This document shows, piece by piece, positions 19,359 to 28,010 of a stretch of 64,000 nt of DNA. Positions within the stretch are counted from its first letter, which is position 1. Each line of letters opens with the position of its first letter. Position numbers and translations under genes: made by a program. This stretch comes from a virus. The notes beneath the pieces were generated by a model. The model did not search any database, had not been told where the DNA came from, and saw only the letters and a program-made list of their open reading frames with translations. The stretch is taken from positions 1-64,000 of IMG/VR virus record IMGVR_UViG_3300045988_122072; one strand, given 5' to 3'.

Positions 19359-20435
19359 TCACTCCTTTATGTTAGTTTTAGTTGTAAGAGATAATATTTT
19401 AGGATGTGTTTCAAAAATATCGATATTAGATTTATTTAAAATATATTCACGAAGTTGTTCTAGAGTATTATTGTGAGTACCATATAGGTTGTGGAAGGAG
19501 CCATCTTTTGTAGAATCGTGGCAATCCTTACATAATGTTATACCATTATCTACCGAATATCTGAGCTCATCATGTTCTGAAAACGAGTATACATGATGGG
19601 CATTTAGTCTACCACCAACTTTGCCACAACACTGGCATGTATAATTATCACGTTCGTATACTAGAGTACGCCAATTTTTATATTCACTACGATGTCGAAG
19701 AGTATCATTTTCTCCATTTATGCCGCCCTTCCAAAAATGATTGTTAGCGCCTCTACGCTCAATGCCAGCCCGTTCATTTTCGCATTTTCTGCATGTAAAA
19801 CCATAAATTGCTGCATTTGCTATCTTCTGAAGATAGTCTTCATGCACTTTATTTGGGCAAGTGAACCAGACCTTTTCTTCTGAATGCGGAGCGTATTCAT
19901 ATGGTGTTTTATCATTTTTCTCAGACCAACGGTCAAGAATTTCTGGATACTTAGCTCCAAGGCTATCTAATGGATGAACTTTTCTATTGATACAATAAGG
20001 GCATCCAATCCCATTAACAAAAGATCGTGGAGCTTGACCATAAACATGATACTCATGCTTTTGGCATTGAATAATAATTTCGCCACATATACGACCAGCG
20101 GGAACTTCCCATGGAGAAACATCATTACTACTATGCCAACGTGACCACAAATAATCTTCTCCATATTTATCAATGACTACTTGTGCAACACTATTGCATT
20201 TCCTACACTTTCCAGAAGAATGGCTTCTAGTTAAAACGGTAATATAAAATTCTTCGCTTTCATGAATACCGCGAGGACATTTAAACCAATATTTTTTATT
20301 ACTTTGATAACCCACATCTTTAGTAGTACACCCATTTTTATCAACATCAAATCTTTCATTCAAATCTAATCTATTGTTTTCTACACACCACTCATAAAAT
20401 GTTTTAGTAACACTAAACTGATTACCATATTCCAT
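19359..20435 (-). CDS. HNH homing endonuclease (intron A-encoded)
   Basis: C-terminal HNH motif CQCCGKVGGRLNAHHVYSF..NGITLCKDCHD. Repeated Zn-ribbon units (YWFKCPRGIHE, VWFTCPNKVHE). ATG 20435 lies 5 nt after GGAGG. Confidence 0.85.
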   Translation of the reverse strand: MEYGNQFSVTKTFYEWCVENNRLDLNERFDVDKNGCTTKDVGYQSNKKYWFKCPRGIHESEEFYITVLTRSHSSGKCRKCNSVAQVVIDKYGEDYLWSRWHSSNDVSPWEVPAGRICGEIIIQCQKHEYHVYGQAPRSFVNGIGCPYCINRKVHPLDSLGAKYPEILDRWSEKNDKTPYEYAPHSEEKVWFTCPNKVHEDYLQKIANAAIYGFTCRKCENERAGIERRGANNHFWKGGINGENDTLRHRSEYKNWRTLVYERDNYTCQCCGKVGGRLNAHHVYSFSEHDELRYSVDNGITLCKDCHDSTKDGSFHNLYGTHNNTLEQLREYILNKSNIDIFETHPKILSLTTKTNIKE

Positions 20436-20549
20436 AAATATTACCTCCATAATAACATCTCCACTTTTAAACATCGCAAGAAGGTAGGGTGTGGAGGCAC
20501 CCTACCTTGTCAAAAGAGCCAATTACCTCTCTTTCTATCTTGCGTTGAT

Positions 20550-20578
20550 ATTATATCACATTAATTTTGTTTTGTCAA
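20550..20578 (-). promoter_or_regulatory. Consensus sigma-70-type promoter inside intron A
   Basis: Minus strand TTGACA (20573-20578), 17 nt, TATAAT (20550-20555). The -35 is part of the palindrome TTGTCAAGGACTTGACAA (20572-20589). The spacer contains an ACAAAATTAA box (20561-20570). Confidence 0.65.
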
Positions 20579-21000
20579 GTCCTTGACAAATTATTCCTCG
20601 CTAGGAATAACGATGGAGAATACTATTGCGTTTAAGCAAGGCGCTACACTTGCCCGGTCTTATGACCCTTTATCTTTCGATAAAGTACAGACTATATCTT
20701 CACCCACATAAGTGGGGCACACCACTTCCATAACCAATCGCTTGTTATGTACTTCTCTTAACGAGAATAGTCGTTGAGGTTTTCTCTATTCGAGACTTAC
20801 CTGCTGATTTCCCATTATAACAGATACTTAGGATTTAACCATATATCTATCTCATAACTTTTTTCTACTTTCGTGACCATTACGTTTAAGCATGTTTCAT
20901 CTTTCCGCTTTGGTATATGAGCTTTAGGGATTTCCAGCATTTCAATGTGTTATTTATCATATAAATTACTTTATACGGAAACTATTCGTAGAAAGCCACA

Positions 21001-21768
21001 TTATGCAGCCATCACTTCTAATTTCTTTTCCTTGTCGCAGTATGCCTGTTGAGCCTTACCACTGAAAGGATGAGCGCCATCTGTCGCAACAGACCAGTCG
21101 AAGTCAGGACTAAGCTTAAAGTTGGGGAAGATGAGATAACAGTGAATTAAAGTAGTCTGATCACATACGTCGCAGCCAAGAACTTCCATGACGAACTTAC
21201 AGCCGACAGGGAATTCAGTAGCGGAGTTGACAACTTCAACAGCATTCTCAGTCTCATAGTCATACATAACGAATAGCTCGTCACTAGCATTTAGACCGGT
21301 AGGCAGCTTCATATTCTGGCCAGCAATGGAGAACTCTGTCTCAGAGGCAGCAGTACCCTTGGTGTACTTCTTACCAAAAGTGCTATCGCCATTTAGAACA
21401 TAAATTTCCTTAACTTCGCCCTTGGGAGCATGCTTTAGCTCATAAGAACCAGTGCCATATTCGAAGCTCTCCATAGCAGGAGCAGTAATCTTAGCAGAAG
21501 AGCTGGCAACCTTCTTGGAAGTACCAAGCTGAGTAGCCATTAGATTCATATCGAAAATAGCGTTCTCAGCAGAGAACTCGGCACTCTTAGCACGATAGAA
21601 CGTAGCAATAGGAGTACCTAGAGCGTCAACAGCATCAGTGGATTCAGATGCGCAGTTTAGAGAAACATTCTGCATCTGGTTGATAGAGAATAGTATGGAA
21701 TCGTCCTTCTGAGATAGAGCAATACCACGAGTAACTCTATTGATAACAAAGTTATTAATGTCAAACAT
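21001..21768 (-). CDS. Structural-module protein (possible tail/neck component). The 3' end may be remodelled by splicing of intron A
   Basis: 255 aa; GGAGG SD; the stop lies 11 nt downstream of the predicted 5' splice site (21014/21013). Confidence 0.7.
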   Translation of the reverse strand: MFDINNFVINRVTRGIALSQKDDSILFSINQMQNVSLNCASESTDAVDALGTPIATFYRAKSAEFSAENAIFDMNLMATQLGTSKKVASSSAKITAPAMESFEYGTGSYELKHAPKGEVKEIYVLNGDSTFGKKYTKGTAASETEFSIAGQNMKLPTGLNASDELFVMYDYETENAVEVVNSATEFPVGCKFVMEVLGCDVCDQTTLIHCYLIFPNFKLSPDFDWSVATDGAHPFSGKAQQAYCDKEKKLEVMAA

Positions 21769-25656: not shown

Positions 25657-25906
25657 TTACTTAACAATCTTCCACATACCAAACTTCTGGTTAGTAATAA
25701 CACTAAGGCCCATCTTAGTCTGAACCTCGTAATCATACGTAAGATCCATATGAGTACCAGCGTCCTGAACCTGATACATCTGAGTGTCGCCTTCATAAAC
25801 TAGCTTGATGAAAGGCTCGACACCAACGGGCATGATAAACAGAATATCATTAGCAATTAGATACTGAGTGGTATCATTAAGCTTAAAGCCCTGCTTTAAC
25901 TCAACA
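25657..25906 (-). CDS. Major capsid protein, exon 2 (predicted)
   Basis: An 83-codon open frame with no start codon or SD ends at TAA 25657-25659. It encodes VELKQGFKLNDTTQYLIANDILFIMPVGVEPFIKLVYEGDTQMYQVQDAGTHMDLTYDYEVQTKMGLSVITNQKFGMWKIVK. Joined to exon 1 it gives a 1089-nt, in-frame, 362-aa product. Confidence 0.7.
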
Positions 25907-25915
25907 CCTTTATGT

Positions 25916-26734
25916 TTAACAATTTTTATTTTCCAACATTACCCATGATAATGGCTCTCCGGTAACTGGGTGCTTACCGGCATGTTTTTGTTCTCCAACT
26001 AAACAGGCTTTAATACAACCTTTACAAATATTATATTTATTTTCTGCTTCTCTCATTGTTATAAAACATTCATCAAGTTGTGGGCAATATACACTTATGC
26101 CATTCTTTTTTCTTGCCGCTCCGATTTTCTTACGGGTTTCTTCTGAACGGAATGTACTCCCGCCCCTTCCAGATTTTTTAGCAGCTTTACTACGATTAGT
26201 ATGACACACTTCATCCCAATTAATGGATTTTATTTCTTGAAGCTTAGATTCGGATGTATTAATATATTCGTCGTAATACATAAAATCACGATGTATCTTT
26301 AACATTTCCCACATTGTGGTATTGCTAATATTATTGTCAATATAACAATCTTTGACTGTATCATATATTTTATCATCACATAATCTTATAACACGTCTTG
26401 CAGATGGATTTTTATAACCAGAAAATTTTTCTGAATATACCTTCCTTGCTTCTTCGTATTCTTCTGGAGTTAATTCATATCTTTTTTGATTCTTATCTTT
26501 CACAAACGCCATTAACGTATATGCATGTGCCAGCTTATCATCATCAGGATTTTCTTCGGCAAGTAATTTATGTGCAATAAAATGTTCCCTAGCAAACAAA
26601 TCAATTAAATTTTCTTCTTTGTCAGATCCATTTTTACACTTAGGAATAATATGATGTCTTTCGTGATATTCATCATCATACATAAAACGTCCACGAGTTT
26701 GTAAAATGTTATCAATAAATTCTTTATAACTCAT
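25916..26734 (-). CDS. HNH homing endonuclease with NUMOD-like DNA-binding modules (intron B-encoded)
   Basis: HERHHIIPKCKNGSDKEENLIDLFAREHFIAHKLL (HNH). SEETRKKIGAARKKNG (NUMOD3-like). ATG 26734 follows AGAGG. The ORF-track start 26815 lies inside the intron core. Confidence 0.85.
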   Translation of the reverse strand: MSYKEFIDNILQTRGRFMYDDEYHERHHIIPKCKNGSDKEENLIDLFAREHFIAHKLLAEENPDDDKLAHAYTLMAFVKDKNQKRYELTPEEYEEARKVYSEKFSGYKNPSARRVIRLCDDKIYDTVKDCYIDNNISNTTMWEMLKIHRDFMYYDEYINTSESKLQEIKSINWDEVCHTNRSKAAKKSGRGGSTFRSEETRKKIGAARKKNGISVYCPQLDECFITMREAENKYNICKGCIKACLVGEQKHAGKHPVTGEPLSWVMLENKNC

Positions 26735-26946
26735 ATTTACCTCTTTTAAAAAATATTGTTGGAAAATAAAAATACAGAACGCTACTTCTGTGTTGTTGAA
26801 AAATTCAACCTCCATCTTTCAATAGAGAGCAGACTATATCTTCATTCTTTCGAATGCGCACCACTTCGAACGCCAACCACTTGCGTCCTACTCCCATTAC
26901 GGGATAGTCGTTGAACCTTCATCTTAACATTAATTTTGTATTATAC

Positions 26947-26974
26947 ATTATACCTTAAAATTTTAATTTGTCAA
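26947..26974 (-). promoter_or_regulatory. Consensus sigma-70-type promoter inside intron B
   Basis: Minus strand TTGACA (26969-26974), 16 nt, TATAAT (26947-26952). A second TATAAT lies at 26940-26945, followed by an ACAAAATTA box (26931-26939). Confidence 0.6.
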
Positions 26975-27171
26975 GATACTTGGCTGCTGATTGTCCATTA
27001 TTACAACATTTAGGATTTAACCATGTGTCATCTGTATTTGTTTTTTCTACTTTCGTAGCATTCACGCTCGACTTTACAGTCCACGTTGTAGCCAATACAG
27101 TTTTAGGATTTTCCAGCAATTCAATGCGTTATTTTTCGAACAGTTTTCACTGTACGCGACCTATTTATTTA

Positions 27172-28010
27172 AGTCTAATTCCTTCCCAATAACCAAACTT
27201 ACCAGTGGTGTGCTTCTCATCCTTCATGCTACCAGAAGCCCATTCAACCTTAGTAAGATCAAACACACTAGCAAGAGCAGCGCGAGTACCCATAATAACG
27301 ACTTCGGAATCAGATGCCATACCAACATCCATACATAGAGTACGTAAGGTTTCCTTGGTTGCATCACTTAGAGCAGAAGACTTATACCACTGAGCGCCTA
27401 GAGTAGTACCAACACCCATTAGAGCCTCATATAGAGCCTGATTGACATAACGATCAAAAGCTTCAGTAATCTTACCAACTAGAGTTGCAAAATCTTCAAC
27501 GCCAGTAAGTAGTCTTTCAAATTCTGCGTAAACCTTAAGACCATACCAGCTAGTCTCAACACTAAAGGTCTTGCCAGCTCCTAGTCTCTGTCTAATAATG
27601 TCGTGATGGTTGCCAGAGACTTTCATTACAGAAAGAACACTCTGATCTGGGCAATAGAACTCGTTCTTATCACCAAGTGCTAGATTACGAATTTCAACAA
27701 ACTCCTTGAAGAAAGGATTCTCCTGCCAGCCACTAACTAGAGCATCATCAATAACGACCTCAATTAGATCAAAAAGAACTGCCTGATTTCTACGAATACC
27801 TCTACGAATTTCTGCCTTGGTGGACTTTTCGTCGCAACCAATAACATTGCGGAAAATCTCAACAATCTTCTGATTTGCTTCCTTTACGGAAATGCCATCT
27901 AGAGCATTGTGAGCATAGTCAAGCATTAGCTTATTAAAAGCATTATAATCATTCTCATTATTATCAAATACATTCTTAACATTCATATCAAACTGCATAA
28001 ACTTAGCCAT
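27172..28010 (-). CDS. Major capsid protein, exon 1 (predicted)
   Basis: ATG 28010 lies 8 nt after GGAGG. The ORF runs to ..GKFGYWEGIRL. An in-frame TAA lies 2 codons past the predicted 5' splice site. Its position after portal and scaffold supports a capsid call. Confidence 0.7.

What the first reader, a model, noticed from the sequence alone, without database searches (positions are those of the whole stretch)
25657..28010. The major capsid gene is split by a group I intron of about 1.27 kb that carries an HNH-NUMOD homing endonuclease
The capsid-like ORF ends abruptly at ..GYWEGIRLK*. About 1.26 kb downstream, an 83-codon frame with no start codon or SD runs to TAA at 25657 (VELKQGFKLNDTTQYLIANDILFIMPVG...GMWKIVK). 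The interval carries P1 (GACU|/GGUC with a U-G pair), P2 (ACAGU-GAAA-ACUGU), P, Q, R, P8 and S elements of a group I ribozyme, plus an I-HmuI-like HNH ORF. Splicing 27172 to 25906 (omega G at 25907) gives exactly 1089 nt, or 362 aa, reading ..WEGIRL-VELKQG... Capsid production would then depend on RNA splicing.
Basis: partly seen in the sequence, partly recalled or inferred. Interest (0 to 1): 0.8.

Follow-up and report, generated by a model that had tools for sequence, protein, structure and literature searches.

The report
Self-splicing intron inside a phage capsid gene
The major capsid gene of this uncultured SPbeta-like phage is interrupted by a 1,265-base mobile self-splicing (group I) intron that carries its own HNH homing-endonuclease gene; this is a well-supported but ordinary example of a known kind of element.

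Summary
The observation and its interpretation both hold. Rfam RF00028 (group I intron) matches window 26810-27181(-) over the full model at 68.8 bits (gathering score 50, E=2e-15). Joining 28010..27172 to 25906..25657 gives a 1,089-nt, 362-aa ORF. That ORF lines up base for base, with no indel, with uninterrupted capsid genes on independent metagenome contigs (99% aa identity). The exon ends in U paired to G of the guide sequence (GACU/GGUC), the intron ends in G at 25907, and the guide continues into a 4-bp P10 with exon 2. Twenty related ribozymes show compensatory changes in 44 of 76 pairs. The endonuclease ORF (26734..25916, 272 aa) lies after P9.2. A 17-bp long-range helix brackets it, and that helix co-varies in three intron variants. 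A perfect TTGACA-16-TATAAT sits in the P6 loop. The ORF is under purifying selection. HNH is sub-threshold in this copy, and NUMOD/I-HmuI-like domains appear only in homologues. The exon flanks carry a co-conversion-like tract. Capsid-gene group I introns are already known (Tuc2009, LittleE), so this is a new member of a known kind. In relatives the same ribozyme family occupies five sites in this capsid gene, and an ORF-less copy sits in the window's tail tube gene.

The parts
27172..28010 (-). Major capsid protein (YonB-type) exon 1, 839 nt. It ends in U 27172, the second base of a Leu codon. Unspliced, the frame reads two more codons (..LK) to a TAA in the intron.
   Evidence: relatives carry Pfam PF27364 YonB; phrog_4088 1e-77 across residues 23-360 of the spliced product
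25907..27171 (-). Group I intron, 1,265 nt, G+C 33% against 40% in the exons.
25657..25906 (-). Capsid exon 2, 250 nt, with no in-frame start or Shine-Dalgarno sequence at its 5' end.
26810..27181 (-). Ribozyme core P1-P9 (Rfam RF00028, model positions 1-253 of 253).
   Evidence: covariation
27158..27165 (-). Internal guide sequence 5'-AAUAGGUC-3'. GGUC pairs with exon 1 GACU (U.G at the splice site) to form P1. AAUA pairs with exon 2 UGUU to form P10. Together they make 8 contiguous pairs with the ligated exons.
   Evidence: the guide changes with the exon sequence at each of five insertion sites in relatives
27140..27153 (-). P2 hairpin ACAGU-GAAA-ACUGU.
   Evidence: all 5 pairs show compensatory changes
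26947..26974 (-). Perfect sigma-70-type promoter consensus TTGACA-16-TATAAT in the P6 loop, about 210 nt upstream of the endonuclease start. Its function is inferred.
   Evidence: the only 12/12 match in the 3.2 kb scanned; present in 15 of 18 ORF-bearing family introns and absent from the ORF-less ones, apart from one 2-mismatch match elsewhere in L037's site-473 intron
26868..26904 (-). P7.1 (26892-26904) and P7.2 (26868-26888) hairpins between P7 and P3', the hallmark of subgroup IA.
   Evidence: P7.2: 6 of 6 pairs compensatory; P7.1: 2 of 4
26774..26856 (-). P8 (26843-26856), 3' strand of P7 (26830-26837), P9 (26810-26827), P9.1 (26795-26809), P9.2 (26774-26791).
   Evidence: P9.2 A-U changes to G-C in the L023 variant
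26755..26773 (-). 5' strand of the long-range helix 'P9.3' that brackets the endonuclease ORF.
   Evidence: inverted repeat I1, 20 nt, 95% complementary, 812 nt between the arms; a perfect 15-17 bp helix in all three intron variants, kept by two compensated substitutions and a paired 1-nt deletion
25922..25939 (-). 3' strand of the bracketing helix P9.3. It overlaps the last codons of the endonuclease ORF.
25916..26734 (-). Intron-encoded HNH homing endonuclease ORF, 272 aa plus stop, with Shine-Dalgarno AAAGAGG at 26740-26746.
   Evidence: phrog_655 'homing endonuclease' 1.8e-25; Pfam HNH 6e-4; family-level HNH, I-HmuI_NUMOD-like and NUMOD3 matches; dN/dS 0.16-0.26
25907..25921 (-). Conserved 3' tail UGUUAAACAUAAAGG ending in the terminal G (omega G, 25907).
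   Evidence: the same tail motif ends the family's introns at all five capsid sites and in ORF-less copies
25891..25906 (-). Co-conversion-like tract in exon 2. Seven of the 33 differences from the nearest intron-less allele fall in 13 nt here, and the tract matches the consensus of intron-bearing alleles.
   Evidence: P about 4e-5 after correcting for window position

Best explanation
The capsid gene is transcribed as one pre-mRNA: exon 1, a 1,265-nt subgroup-IA group I intron, then exon 2. The ribozyme core (P1-P9.2) lies in the first 400 nt or so. The guide sequence AAUAGGUC holds the end of exon 1 (GACU, with U.G at the splice site) and then the start of exon 2 (UGUU). A 17-bp long-range helix loops out the 819-nt endonuclease ORF and brings the conserved 3' tail and the terminal G close to the core. 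Two guanosine-dependent transesterifications then join 27172 to 25906 and restore a 362-aa YonB-type major capsid protein, so capsid production depends on RNA splicing. The intron is a mobile element. Its HNH endonuclease is probably expressed from its own consensus promoter in the P6 loop and its own Shine-Dalgarno sequence. It cuts or nicks intron-less capsid alleles during co-infection, and repair copies the intron together with a few flanking exon bases. Shown here: the ribozyme homology and covariation, the exact boundaries, the presence/absence polymorphism, the flank tract and the purifying selection on the ORF. Inferred: the splicing chemistry, promoter use, and endonuclease activity and specificity.
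For: RF00028 matches over the full model at 68.8 bits, E=2.3e-15. The spliced CDS of 1,089 nt is colinear with uninterrupted genes on L001-L004, with 33 substitutions and no indel. P0001 is 99% identical over 100% of the length. More distant capsid genes span the junction in one piece. The same intron sits at the same site in at least 12 relatives' loci. The window-type allele occurs in four independent samples. In the family alignment 91.6% of cells are paired against 38-44% when partners are slid, 44 of 76 pairs have changes on both sides, and 0 of 500 shuffles reach that; RNAalifold gives 43 of 68 pairs. P1 and P10 re-match the exon sequence at each of five insertion sites. The ORF-bracketing helix is kept through compensatory changes. 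The endonuclease ORF is intact in all eight variants, with dN/dS 0.16-0.26. The ribozyme is 95-99% identical to that of L005-type relatives whose exon 1 is 81-85% identical. The exon flank matches intron-bearing alleles rather than the window's own 96-98% identical sister alleles. The ligated-exon sequence of the intron-bearing alleles does not occur as DNA in IMG/VR or the JGI metagenomes (positive control).
Against: There are no RNA data, so splicing is inferred. P1 has only 4 exon pairs (6 including the intron-internal UA/UA) and P10 has 4 A/U-rich pairs, so each is weak alone. The window's endonuclease falls just below Pfam's HNH threshold (20.4 against 21.4 bits) and shows no NUMOD match itself. 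The structural match to I-HmuI is not significant (E=0.089, TM 0.2-0.3). The promoter is only a consensus match. The window is a metagenomic assembly, so the viability of this particular genome is not shown.
Confidence: 0.93

Rival explanations
1. The intron is a decaying, splicing-dead relic, so this genome carries a broken capsid gene (a defective phage or prophage remnant).
For: The sequence is metagenomic only and no RNA evidence exists. P1 and P10 are short.
Against: The covariance-model match is full length. All core helices are intact and co-vary across relatives. The same arrangement is found in many independent assemblies, on contigs up to about 161 kb. The endonuclease ORF is under purifying selection. 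The exons keep 99% aa identity to uninterrupted alleles, with no frameshift or stop.
Confidence: 0.03
2. The capsid gene is truly split into two separately translated polypeptides, with a free-standing endonuclease gene between them; the ribozyme-like RNA is incidental.
For: Gene callers annotate a 281-aa product and a separate 58-59-aa YonB-like product.
Against: Exon 2 has no in-frame start or Shine-Dalgarno sequence at its 5' end, and the internal ATG would drop 25 conserved residues. The junction falls inside a codon. The guide sequence pairs with both exon ends. All uninterrupted homologues are single chains.
Confidence: 0.02
3. It is a group I intron, but the 3' splice site is elsewhere (for example just after P9.2, near 26774), or the intervening sequence is an intein or a group II intron.
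For: The Rfam model ends at 26810, about 900 nt before the proposed 3' splice site. ORF-less relatives end right after P9.2.
Against: Only 27172/25906 gives an indel-free match to the uninterrupted genes. The conserved tail ..UUAAACAUAAAGG that ends ORF-less relatives recurs directly before 25906. The compensated long-range helix explains the distance. In-frame stops rule out an intein. No other Rfam family matches.
Confidence: 0.02

Closest known systems
[quoted passage not shown]
   Same: A self-splicing group I intron in an essential phage gene. The endonuclease ORF is looped out of a peripheral element and has its own intron-internal promoter and Shine-Dalgarno sequence. [quoted passage not shown] The P7.1/P7.2 hairpins place it in subgroup IA like the T4 introns; that subgroup assignment rests on my own knowledge of the Michel-Westhof classification.
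   Different: The host gene is a late structural gene (capsid), not a nucleotide-metabolism gene. The candidate promoter is a host-type sigma-70 consensus in the P6 loop, separated from the ORF by P7-P9.2. I found no operator-like copy of the homing site near the promoter, unlike I-TevI.
Capsid-gene introns of mycobacteriophage LittleE (Cluster J) and lactococcal phage Tuc2009
   Same: An intron interrupts the major capsid subunit gene of a siphovirus. The LittleE intron carries an HNH endonuclease gene, and its splicing was shown by protein N-terminal sequencing and RT-PCR. In the same paper other Cluster J phages carry spliced introns in tail genes (PMC3706429), which parallels the window's second intron in the tail tube gene.
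   Different: In LittleE the HNH gene is on the opposite strand and the intron type was only 'most likely group I'. Here the ORF is co-oriented and the intron is a clear RF00028 match. The phage lineage (SPbeta-like, YonB capsid) and the insertion site are different.
I-HmuI / I-HmuII, HNH endonucleases in the group I introns of the DNA polymerase genes of Bacillus phages SPO1 and SP82
   Same: An N-terminal HNH nuclease followed by NUMOD-type DNA-binding modules, encoded in a group I intron of a phage of Gram-positive hosts. The I-HmuI_NUMOD-like Pfam domain matches 22 of 32 family members, and I-HmuI (1u3e) is the top Foldseek match. These enzymes nick one strand (PMC2988022).
   Different: There is no significant sequence match to I-HmuI in the PDB, with either a single sequence or a profile. 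The structural match has E=0.089. By sequence, the HNH core resembles group II intron maturase and McrA-type HNH more closely. Nicking versus double-strand cutting is unknown here.
Intron-rich phage genomes (Staphylococcus phage Twort orf142 with three introns, from my own knowledge; gut 'Jug' jumbo phages with about 18 group I introns per genome, PMC12880540)
   Same: Several related group I introns invade conserved essential genes, and their presence varies between near-identical genomes.
   Different: Here one closely related ribozyme scaffold occupies five sites within a single 1.1-kb capsid gene across a clade, carrying either HNH or GIY-YIG cargo. The Jug introns are reported as about 206 nt on average.

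Membership tests
Group I catalytic intron (Rfam RF00028) | Covariance-model match at or above the curated gathering score, covering the whole model | tested here: met
   68.8 bits against 50, E=2.3e-15, model positions 1-253 of 253, window 26810-27181(-)
Group I catalytic intron (Rfam RF00028) | 5' exon ends in U paired with G of an internal guide sequence (P1); intron ends in G; P10 with the 3' exon | tested here: met
   GACU|/GGUC with U27172.G; omega G at 25907; UGUU/AAUA lies next to the P1 strand. The guide re-matches the exon at five different sites in relatives.
Group I catalytic intron (Rfam RF00028) | Conserved core helices P3-P9 supported by covariation | tested here: met
   44 of 76 pairs have changes on both sides, 91.6% of cells are paired against 38-44% when slid, and 0 of 500 shuffles reach that; RNAalifold gives 43 of 68. 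P4 and P7 are invariant, so they say nothing either way. I mis-registered P7 (helix 14), and that helix should be ignored.
Group I catalytic intron (Rfam RF00028) | Removing the intron restores an uninterrupted reading frame colinear with intron-less homologues | tested here: met
   1,089 nt, no indel, against L001-L004; 99% aa identity to P0001
Group I catalytic intron (Rfam RF00028) | Guanosine-dependent self-splicing, or a spliced junction seen in RNA | not testable with these tools
   No RNA data or wet-lab assay is available.
Subgroup IA group I introns (the phage type) | Extra hairpins P7.1 and P7.2 between P7 and P3' | tested here: met
   26892-26904 and 26868-26888, both with compensatory changes. 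No subgroup-specific model was run, so the IA1 versus IA2 split is untested.
HNH homing endonuclease with NUMOD-type DNA-binding modules (I-HmuI-like) | HNH nuclease motif recognised by Pfam PF01844 at its curated threshold | tested here: inconclusive
   Window ORF: 20.4 bits against a cut-off of 21.4, E=6e-4. 26 of 32 homologues match at E<=0.01. The motif ..ERHHIIPKC..G....NLIDLFAREHFIAH.. is invariant at H28, N42, H51 and H55.
HNH homing endonuclease with NUMOD-type DNA-binding modules (I-HmuI-like) | NUMOD or I-HmuI_NUMOD-like domain (PF07460, PF22083) | tested here: inconclusive
   There is no match in the window ORF even at E<=10. 22 of 32 homologues match PF22083 (best 4.6e-10) and 16 of 32 match NUMOD3 (best 1.6e-21).
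HNH homing endonuclease with NUMOD-type DNA-binding modules (I-HmuI-like) | Fold similarity to I-HmuI (PDB 1u3e) | tested here: inconclusive
   AlphaFold model with pLDDT 84.4. Foldseek's top PDB match is 1u3e, but with E=0.089 and TM 0.20/0.30. No sequence-level PDB match to I-HmuI.
HNH homing endonuclease with NUMOD-type DNA-binding modules (I-HmuI-like) | Site-specific cleavage or nicking of the intron-less allele, and intron homing | not testable with these tools
   Only indirect signs are available: presence/absence polymorphism, the co-conversion-like flank, the ribozyme better conserved than the exons, and no empty cognate site in two collections.
YonB-type (SPbeta-like) major capsid protein | Full-length homology to the family and to annotated major capsid proteins | tested here: met
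   All close homologues carry a precomputed PF27364 YonB match. phrog_4088 matches at 1e-77 over residues 23-360. tblastn gives 27-31% identity over 92-94% of the length to Bacillus phage genes annotated 'major capsid protein'. The neighbouring genes are YonD, YonG, YonJ, YomW and YomU homologues. My local Pfam copy lacks PF27364 and gives only a weak Phage_cap_E match.

The most novel reading that the evidence does not exclude
The window's intron belongs to one closely related, modular ribozyme family. Across an uncultured clade of 130-170-kb SPbeta-like phages this family has colonised at least five positions of a single 1.1-kb capsid gene (CDS nt 413, 473, 820, 839 and 1002, with up to two seen in one gene) and also the tail tube gene. 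At each position the guide sequence (P1/P10) is re-matched to the local exon. The cargo in the same post-P9.2 slot is either HNH or GIY-YIG, and a host-type consensus promoter is kept in the P6 loop. This would be a natural series of 'retargeted' group I introns. It could show how guide sequence and endonuclease specificity co-evolve when an intron moves to a new site, and whether such introns serve in competition between co-infecting phages.
Probability: 0.55. Interest if true: 0.5.

Novelty: new member of a known kind. Interest (0 to 1): 0.35.

Why it matters
For annotation: gene callers split this capsid gene into a 281-aa and a 58-aa fragment, and an unknown share of metagenomic phage capsid genes are presumably truncated in the same way. 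An intron-aware join is needed before such genes are used for phylogeny or structure work. For biology: capsid protein is among the most heavily produced late proteins, so splicing must be efficient. The intron-encoded nuclease could bias inheritance, or interfere with co-infecting relatives, as shown for the PhiPA3 intron endonuclease (PMC11620839, abstract). The family-wide pattern gives a ready-made comparative set for studying how a group I intron changes target: five sites, a re-matched guide at each, and swapped endonuclease families. None of this changes current understanding of group I introns.

Tried and rejected
1. A megablast of the 2.9-kb region against 50,697 GenBank phage records found nothing, so this phage has no close cultured relative. 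2. phmmer and profile searches of the endonuclease against PDB sequences found no I-HmuI match, only weak HNH-core matches to a group II intron maturase and to McrA. 3. I looked for an I-TevI-style operator, meaning a copy of the homing site near the intron promoter. The best 20-nt match anywhere in the intron is 12-13 of 20, no better than shuffled homing sites, and it is not at the promoter; rejected. 4. A permissive Rfam scan (E<=0.01) for further introns or other RNAs in the window found only the same two group I matches. 5. Host assignment failed. The only hit among GTDB genomes is a 147-kb contig binned as 'uncultured Prevotella sp.', which is probably the phage itself. The strong Shine-Dalgarno sites and TTGACA/TATAAT promoters fit a Gram-positive (Bacillota) host better, but that is inference. 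6. My first hand-drawn P7 pairing was one register off (helix 14). The P7 columns are invariant in the family, so they give no covariation information anyway. 7. A full-length custom covariance model was not built, because the core exceeds the size limit for calibration. 8. The literature search for group I introns, capsid genes and SPbeta together found no paper describing this clade.
Full report
OBSERVATION. On the minus strand, an ORF that starts at ATG 28010 behind a strong Shine-Dalgarno sequence (AAAGGAGG) ends ..GYWEGIRLK* at 27165. About 1.26 kb downstream, an open frame without a usable in-frame start runs to TAA at 25657. Joining 28010..27172 to 25906..25657 gives 839+250 = 1,089 nt and 362 aa, reading ..WEGIRL|VELKQG... 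The interval between them is 1,265 nt, with 33% G+C against 40% in the exons.

IS IT A GROUP I INTRON? Rfam RF00028 matches window 26810-27181(-) over the whole model (1-253 of 253) at 68.8 bits, against a gathering score of 50, with E=2.3e-15. A permissive scan finds only this match and a second RF00028 match at 20668-21012(-).

The boundaries are fixed independently of any RNA model. A 362-aa protein, P0001, is 99% identical to the conceptual product over its full length, and it is encoded by uninterrupted genes on many contigs. On four of those contigs (L001-L004) the gene is exactly 1,089 nt and aligns to the spliced window CDS with 33 substitutions and no indel. More distant capsid genes of Bacillus phages (FADO, Tsamsa, PBC2 and others; 27-31% identity) also cover residues 23-361 in one piece. 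PHROG 4088 covers residues 23-360.

The 281-aa homologues that end ..GIRLK are gene calls from relatives with the same intron at the same place. The window-type allele, with an endonuclease 98% identical, recurs at this site in four independent samples.

ANATOMY (coordinates).
- P1 is GACU|UA (27175-27170) paired with UAGGUC (27163-27158), with U27172.G at the splice site.
- The guide sequence continues as AAUA, which pairs with the first four bases of exon 2 (UGUU) to form P10. So 5'-AAUAGGUC-3' aligns both exon ends over 8 contiguous pairs.
- The core elements follow in order: P2 (27153-27140), P3, P4, P5 with an extension of about 100 nt, P6 with a long loop, P7, P7.1 (26904-26892), P7.2 (26888-26868), P3', P8 (26856-26843), P7', P9 (26827-26810), P9.1 (26809-26795) and P9.2 (26791-26774).
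- P7.1 and P7.2 are the hallmark of subgroup IA, the usual phage type. That assignment rests on my knowledge of the Michel-Westhof scheme; no subgroup model was run.
- The unspliced frame stops two codons into the intron.

COVARIATION. I aligned 20 ribozyme cores, taken from the window and from relatives' capsid and other genes, with MAFFT and without fitting to any structure. RNAalifold finds compensatory changes in 43 of 68 predicted pairs. With a hand-drawn group I structure, 91.6% of cells are paired against 38-44% when partners are slid by 1-3 columns. In that structure 44 of 76 pairs change on both sides, and 0 of 500 shuffles reach the observed values. P2, P3, P6, P7.2, P8 and P9 are especially well supported. 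P4 and P7 are invariant, and I mis-registered P7 in that call.

HOW THE DISTANT 3' SPLICE SITE IS REACHED. The Rfam model ends at P9, about 900 nt before the terminal G. ORF-less relatives (359 and 374 nt in L037, 398 nt in the window's second intron) end right after P9.2 with a conserved tail, for example ..UUAAACAGAAAGG|. In the window, P9.2 is followed by AUUUUUAUUUUCCAACA (within 26773-26755). Its exact complement, UGUUGGAAAAUAAAAAU (within 25939-25922), lies 812 nt downstream, just before the same conserved tail UGUUAAACAUAAAGG| (repeat I1).

This long-range helix, which I call P9.3, loops out the whole endonuclease cassette. In the three sequence variants of this intron the helix stays perfect at 15-17 bp. 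It is maintained by two compensated substitutions (C-G to U-A at two positions) and a paired one-base deletion. The last codons of the ORF overlap its 3' strand. The HNH ORF is therefore an insertion into a peripheral loop of an otherwise compact ribozyme of about 400 nt.

THE ENDONUCLEASE. The ORF is 26734..25916 (272 aa), with Shine-Dalgarno AAAGAGG 6 nt upstream. It matches phrog_655 'homing endonuclease' at 1.8e-25, but Pfam HNH only at 20.4 bits (cut-off 21.4), with no NUMOD match. Of 32 homologues at 38-98% identity, 26 match HNH, 22 match I-HmuI_NUMOD-like (best 4.6e-10) and 16 match NUMOD3 (best 1.6e-21). The HNH residues are invariant.

An AlphaFold model (pLDDT 84.4) has I-HmuI (1u3e) as its best PDB match, but at E=0.089 and TM 0.2-0.3. 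Sequence searches of the PDB do not find I-HmuI. So 'HNH plus NUMOD-like modules' holds at the family level, and 'I-HmuI-like' remains a weak resemblance. The ORF is intact in all eight intron variants seen, with dN/dS of 0.16-0.26. The C-terminal, presumably DNA-binding, half diverges faster.

A CANDIDATE INTERNAL PROMOTER. The only perfect TTGACA-16-TATAAT in the 3.2 kb scanned lies on the coding strand in the P6 loop (26974-26947), about 210 nt upstream of the endonuclease start. A perfect or one-mismatch copy sits at the equivalent place in 15 of 18 ORF-bearing introns of the family, whether the cargo is HNH or GIY-YIG. The ORF-less introns lack one there; the only hit among them is a 2-mismatch match at a different position in L037's site-473 intron. 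Intron-internal promoters for endonuclease genes are established for the T4 introns (PMC2988022). Here the function is inferred. I found no I-TevI-like operator.

SIGNS OF MOBILITY.
(i) The capsid alleles closest to the window (96-98% nt identity) lack this intron. More distant alleles (about 82%) carry it.
(ii) The ribozyme is 95-99% identical between the window and L005-type relatives whose exon 1 is 81-85% identical.
(iii) Seven of the 33 differences from the nearest intron-less allele fall within 13 nt just 3' of the insertion site (P about 4e-5). In that tract, and at -6..-3 relative to some sister alleles, the window matches the consensus of intron-bearing alleles (GGAATTAGACT|TGTYGAGYTAAAGCA) rather than its own lineage. 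This is what exon co-conversion during homing produces (PMC2988022). It also keeps the exon bases needed for P1.
(iv) That ligated-exon sequence does not occur as DNA in IMG/VR or in the JGI metagenome contigs (positive control). Every sampled intron-less allele differs from it at two or more positions between -6 and +10. These may be resistant sites, but that is untested.

CONTEXT. The neighbouring genes are homologues of SPbeta structural proteins (YonJ, YonG, YonD, YonB as capsid, YomW, and YomU as tube), and contigs reach 130-170 kb. No cultured relative exists in GenBank phages at the DNA level. The only GTDB hit is a 147-kb contig in a 'Prevotella' MAG.

Across 52 related loci the capsid gene carries group I introns after CDS nt 413, 473, 820, 839 (the window's site) and 1002. 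Each has U|...G| boundaries, RF00028 matches of 60-98 bits, and its own P1 and P10. Up to two introns were seen in one capsid gene. The cargo is HNH at sites 820 and 839, GIY-YIG at 413, 473 and 1002, or absent.

COMPARISON WITH WHAT IS KNOWN. Group I introns in phage capsid genes are documented. Examples are Tuc2009 and mycobacteriophage LittleE; the LittleE intron carries an HNH gene, and its splicing was shown experimentally. Introns in tail genes are reported in the same paper (PMC3706429). Intron-dense gut phages are also described (PMC12880540). The finding is therefore a new, very well supported member of a known kind. The comparative pattern, with one scaffold, five sites, re-matched guides and swapped nucleases, is the more interesting by-product, and I found no paper describing it for this clade.

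VERDICT. Confidence is 0.93 that this is a functional, mobile, subgroup-IA group I intron whose removal joins 27172 to 25906. Interest is 0.35.

Noticed in passing
window 20623-21020 (-); exons 21021-21768 and 20591-20622: A second, ORF-less group I intron (398 nt; RF00028 60.1 bits) sits near the 3' end of the tail tube (YomU-like) gene. P1 is GAAAU/GUUUC and P10 is UAUUC/GAAUA. Splicing replaces the annotated C-terminus ..KKLEVMAA* with ..KKLFSIVIPSEE*, which matches the uninterrupted tube gene of L002 (..KKLFNIVIPSED*). In L001, L003 and L004 the tube gene calls break off at other points, which suggests further insertion sites.
   Followed up: yes
L005-L052 (relatives); capsid CDS nt 413, 473, 820, 839, 1002: The capsid gene of this clade is an intron hot spot. 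There are five distinct group I insertion sites, with up to two introns seen in one gene (L005, L037, L047, L049, L052, L054). All use one closely related ribozyme scaffold, and the guide sequence is re-matched to each site. The cargo is HNH (sites 820, 839), GIY-YIG (413, 473, 1002) or none.
   Followed up: yes
window 19359-20474 (-), promoter-like site 20550-20578 (-): A free-standing 371-aa zinc-ribbon (DUF4379-like) plus HNH endonuclease gene lies directly downstream of the tube gene. Read by eye, it is preceded by TTGACA-17-TATAAT with an extended -10 (TGA). Equivalent ORFs follow the tube gene in L001-L004. It lies outside the 398-nt intron.
   Followed up: partly
L001-L004, 6.8-7.6 kb and 1.8-3.1 kb in locus coordinates; L006-L011, 0.5-1.5 kb: The relatives' head-gene region holds further variable homing-endonuclease genes (GIY-YIG/NUMOD1, LAGLIDADG_3, DUF723/DUF4379) between the YonG-, YonD- and portal-like genes. 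They are present in some contigs and absent in others. The whole structural module appears to be a playground for selfish nucleases.
   Followed up: no
L001-L004, about 18.2-21 kb in locus coordinates: Genes with the Mtd_N domain (PF18454, the receptor-binding protein of diversity-generating retroelements) lie downstream of the tail genes in the relatives. This suggests a DGR-diversified tail fibre in this clade. I did not check for it in the window.
   Followed up: no
L053 (USJD01000001.1, 147,435 bp): The only match among 185,579 GTDB species genomes is a whole-phage-sized contig binned into an 'uncultured Prevotella sp.' MAG. It is probably a binning artefact rather than host evidence. The window's strong Shine-Dalgarno sites and sigma-70-type promoters suggest a Bacillota host.
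   Followed up: partly
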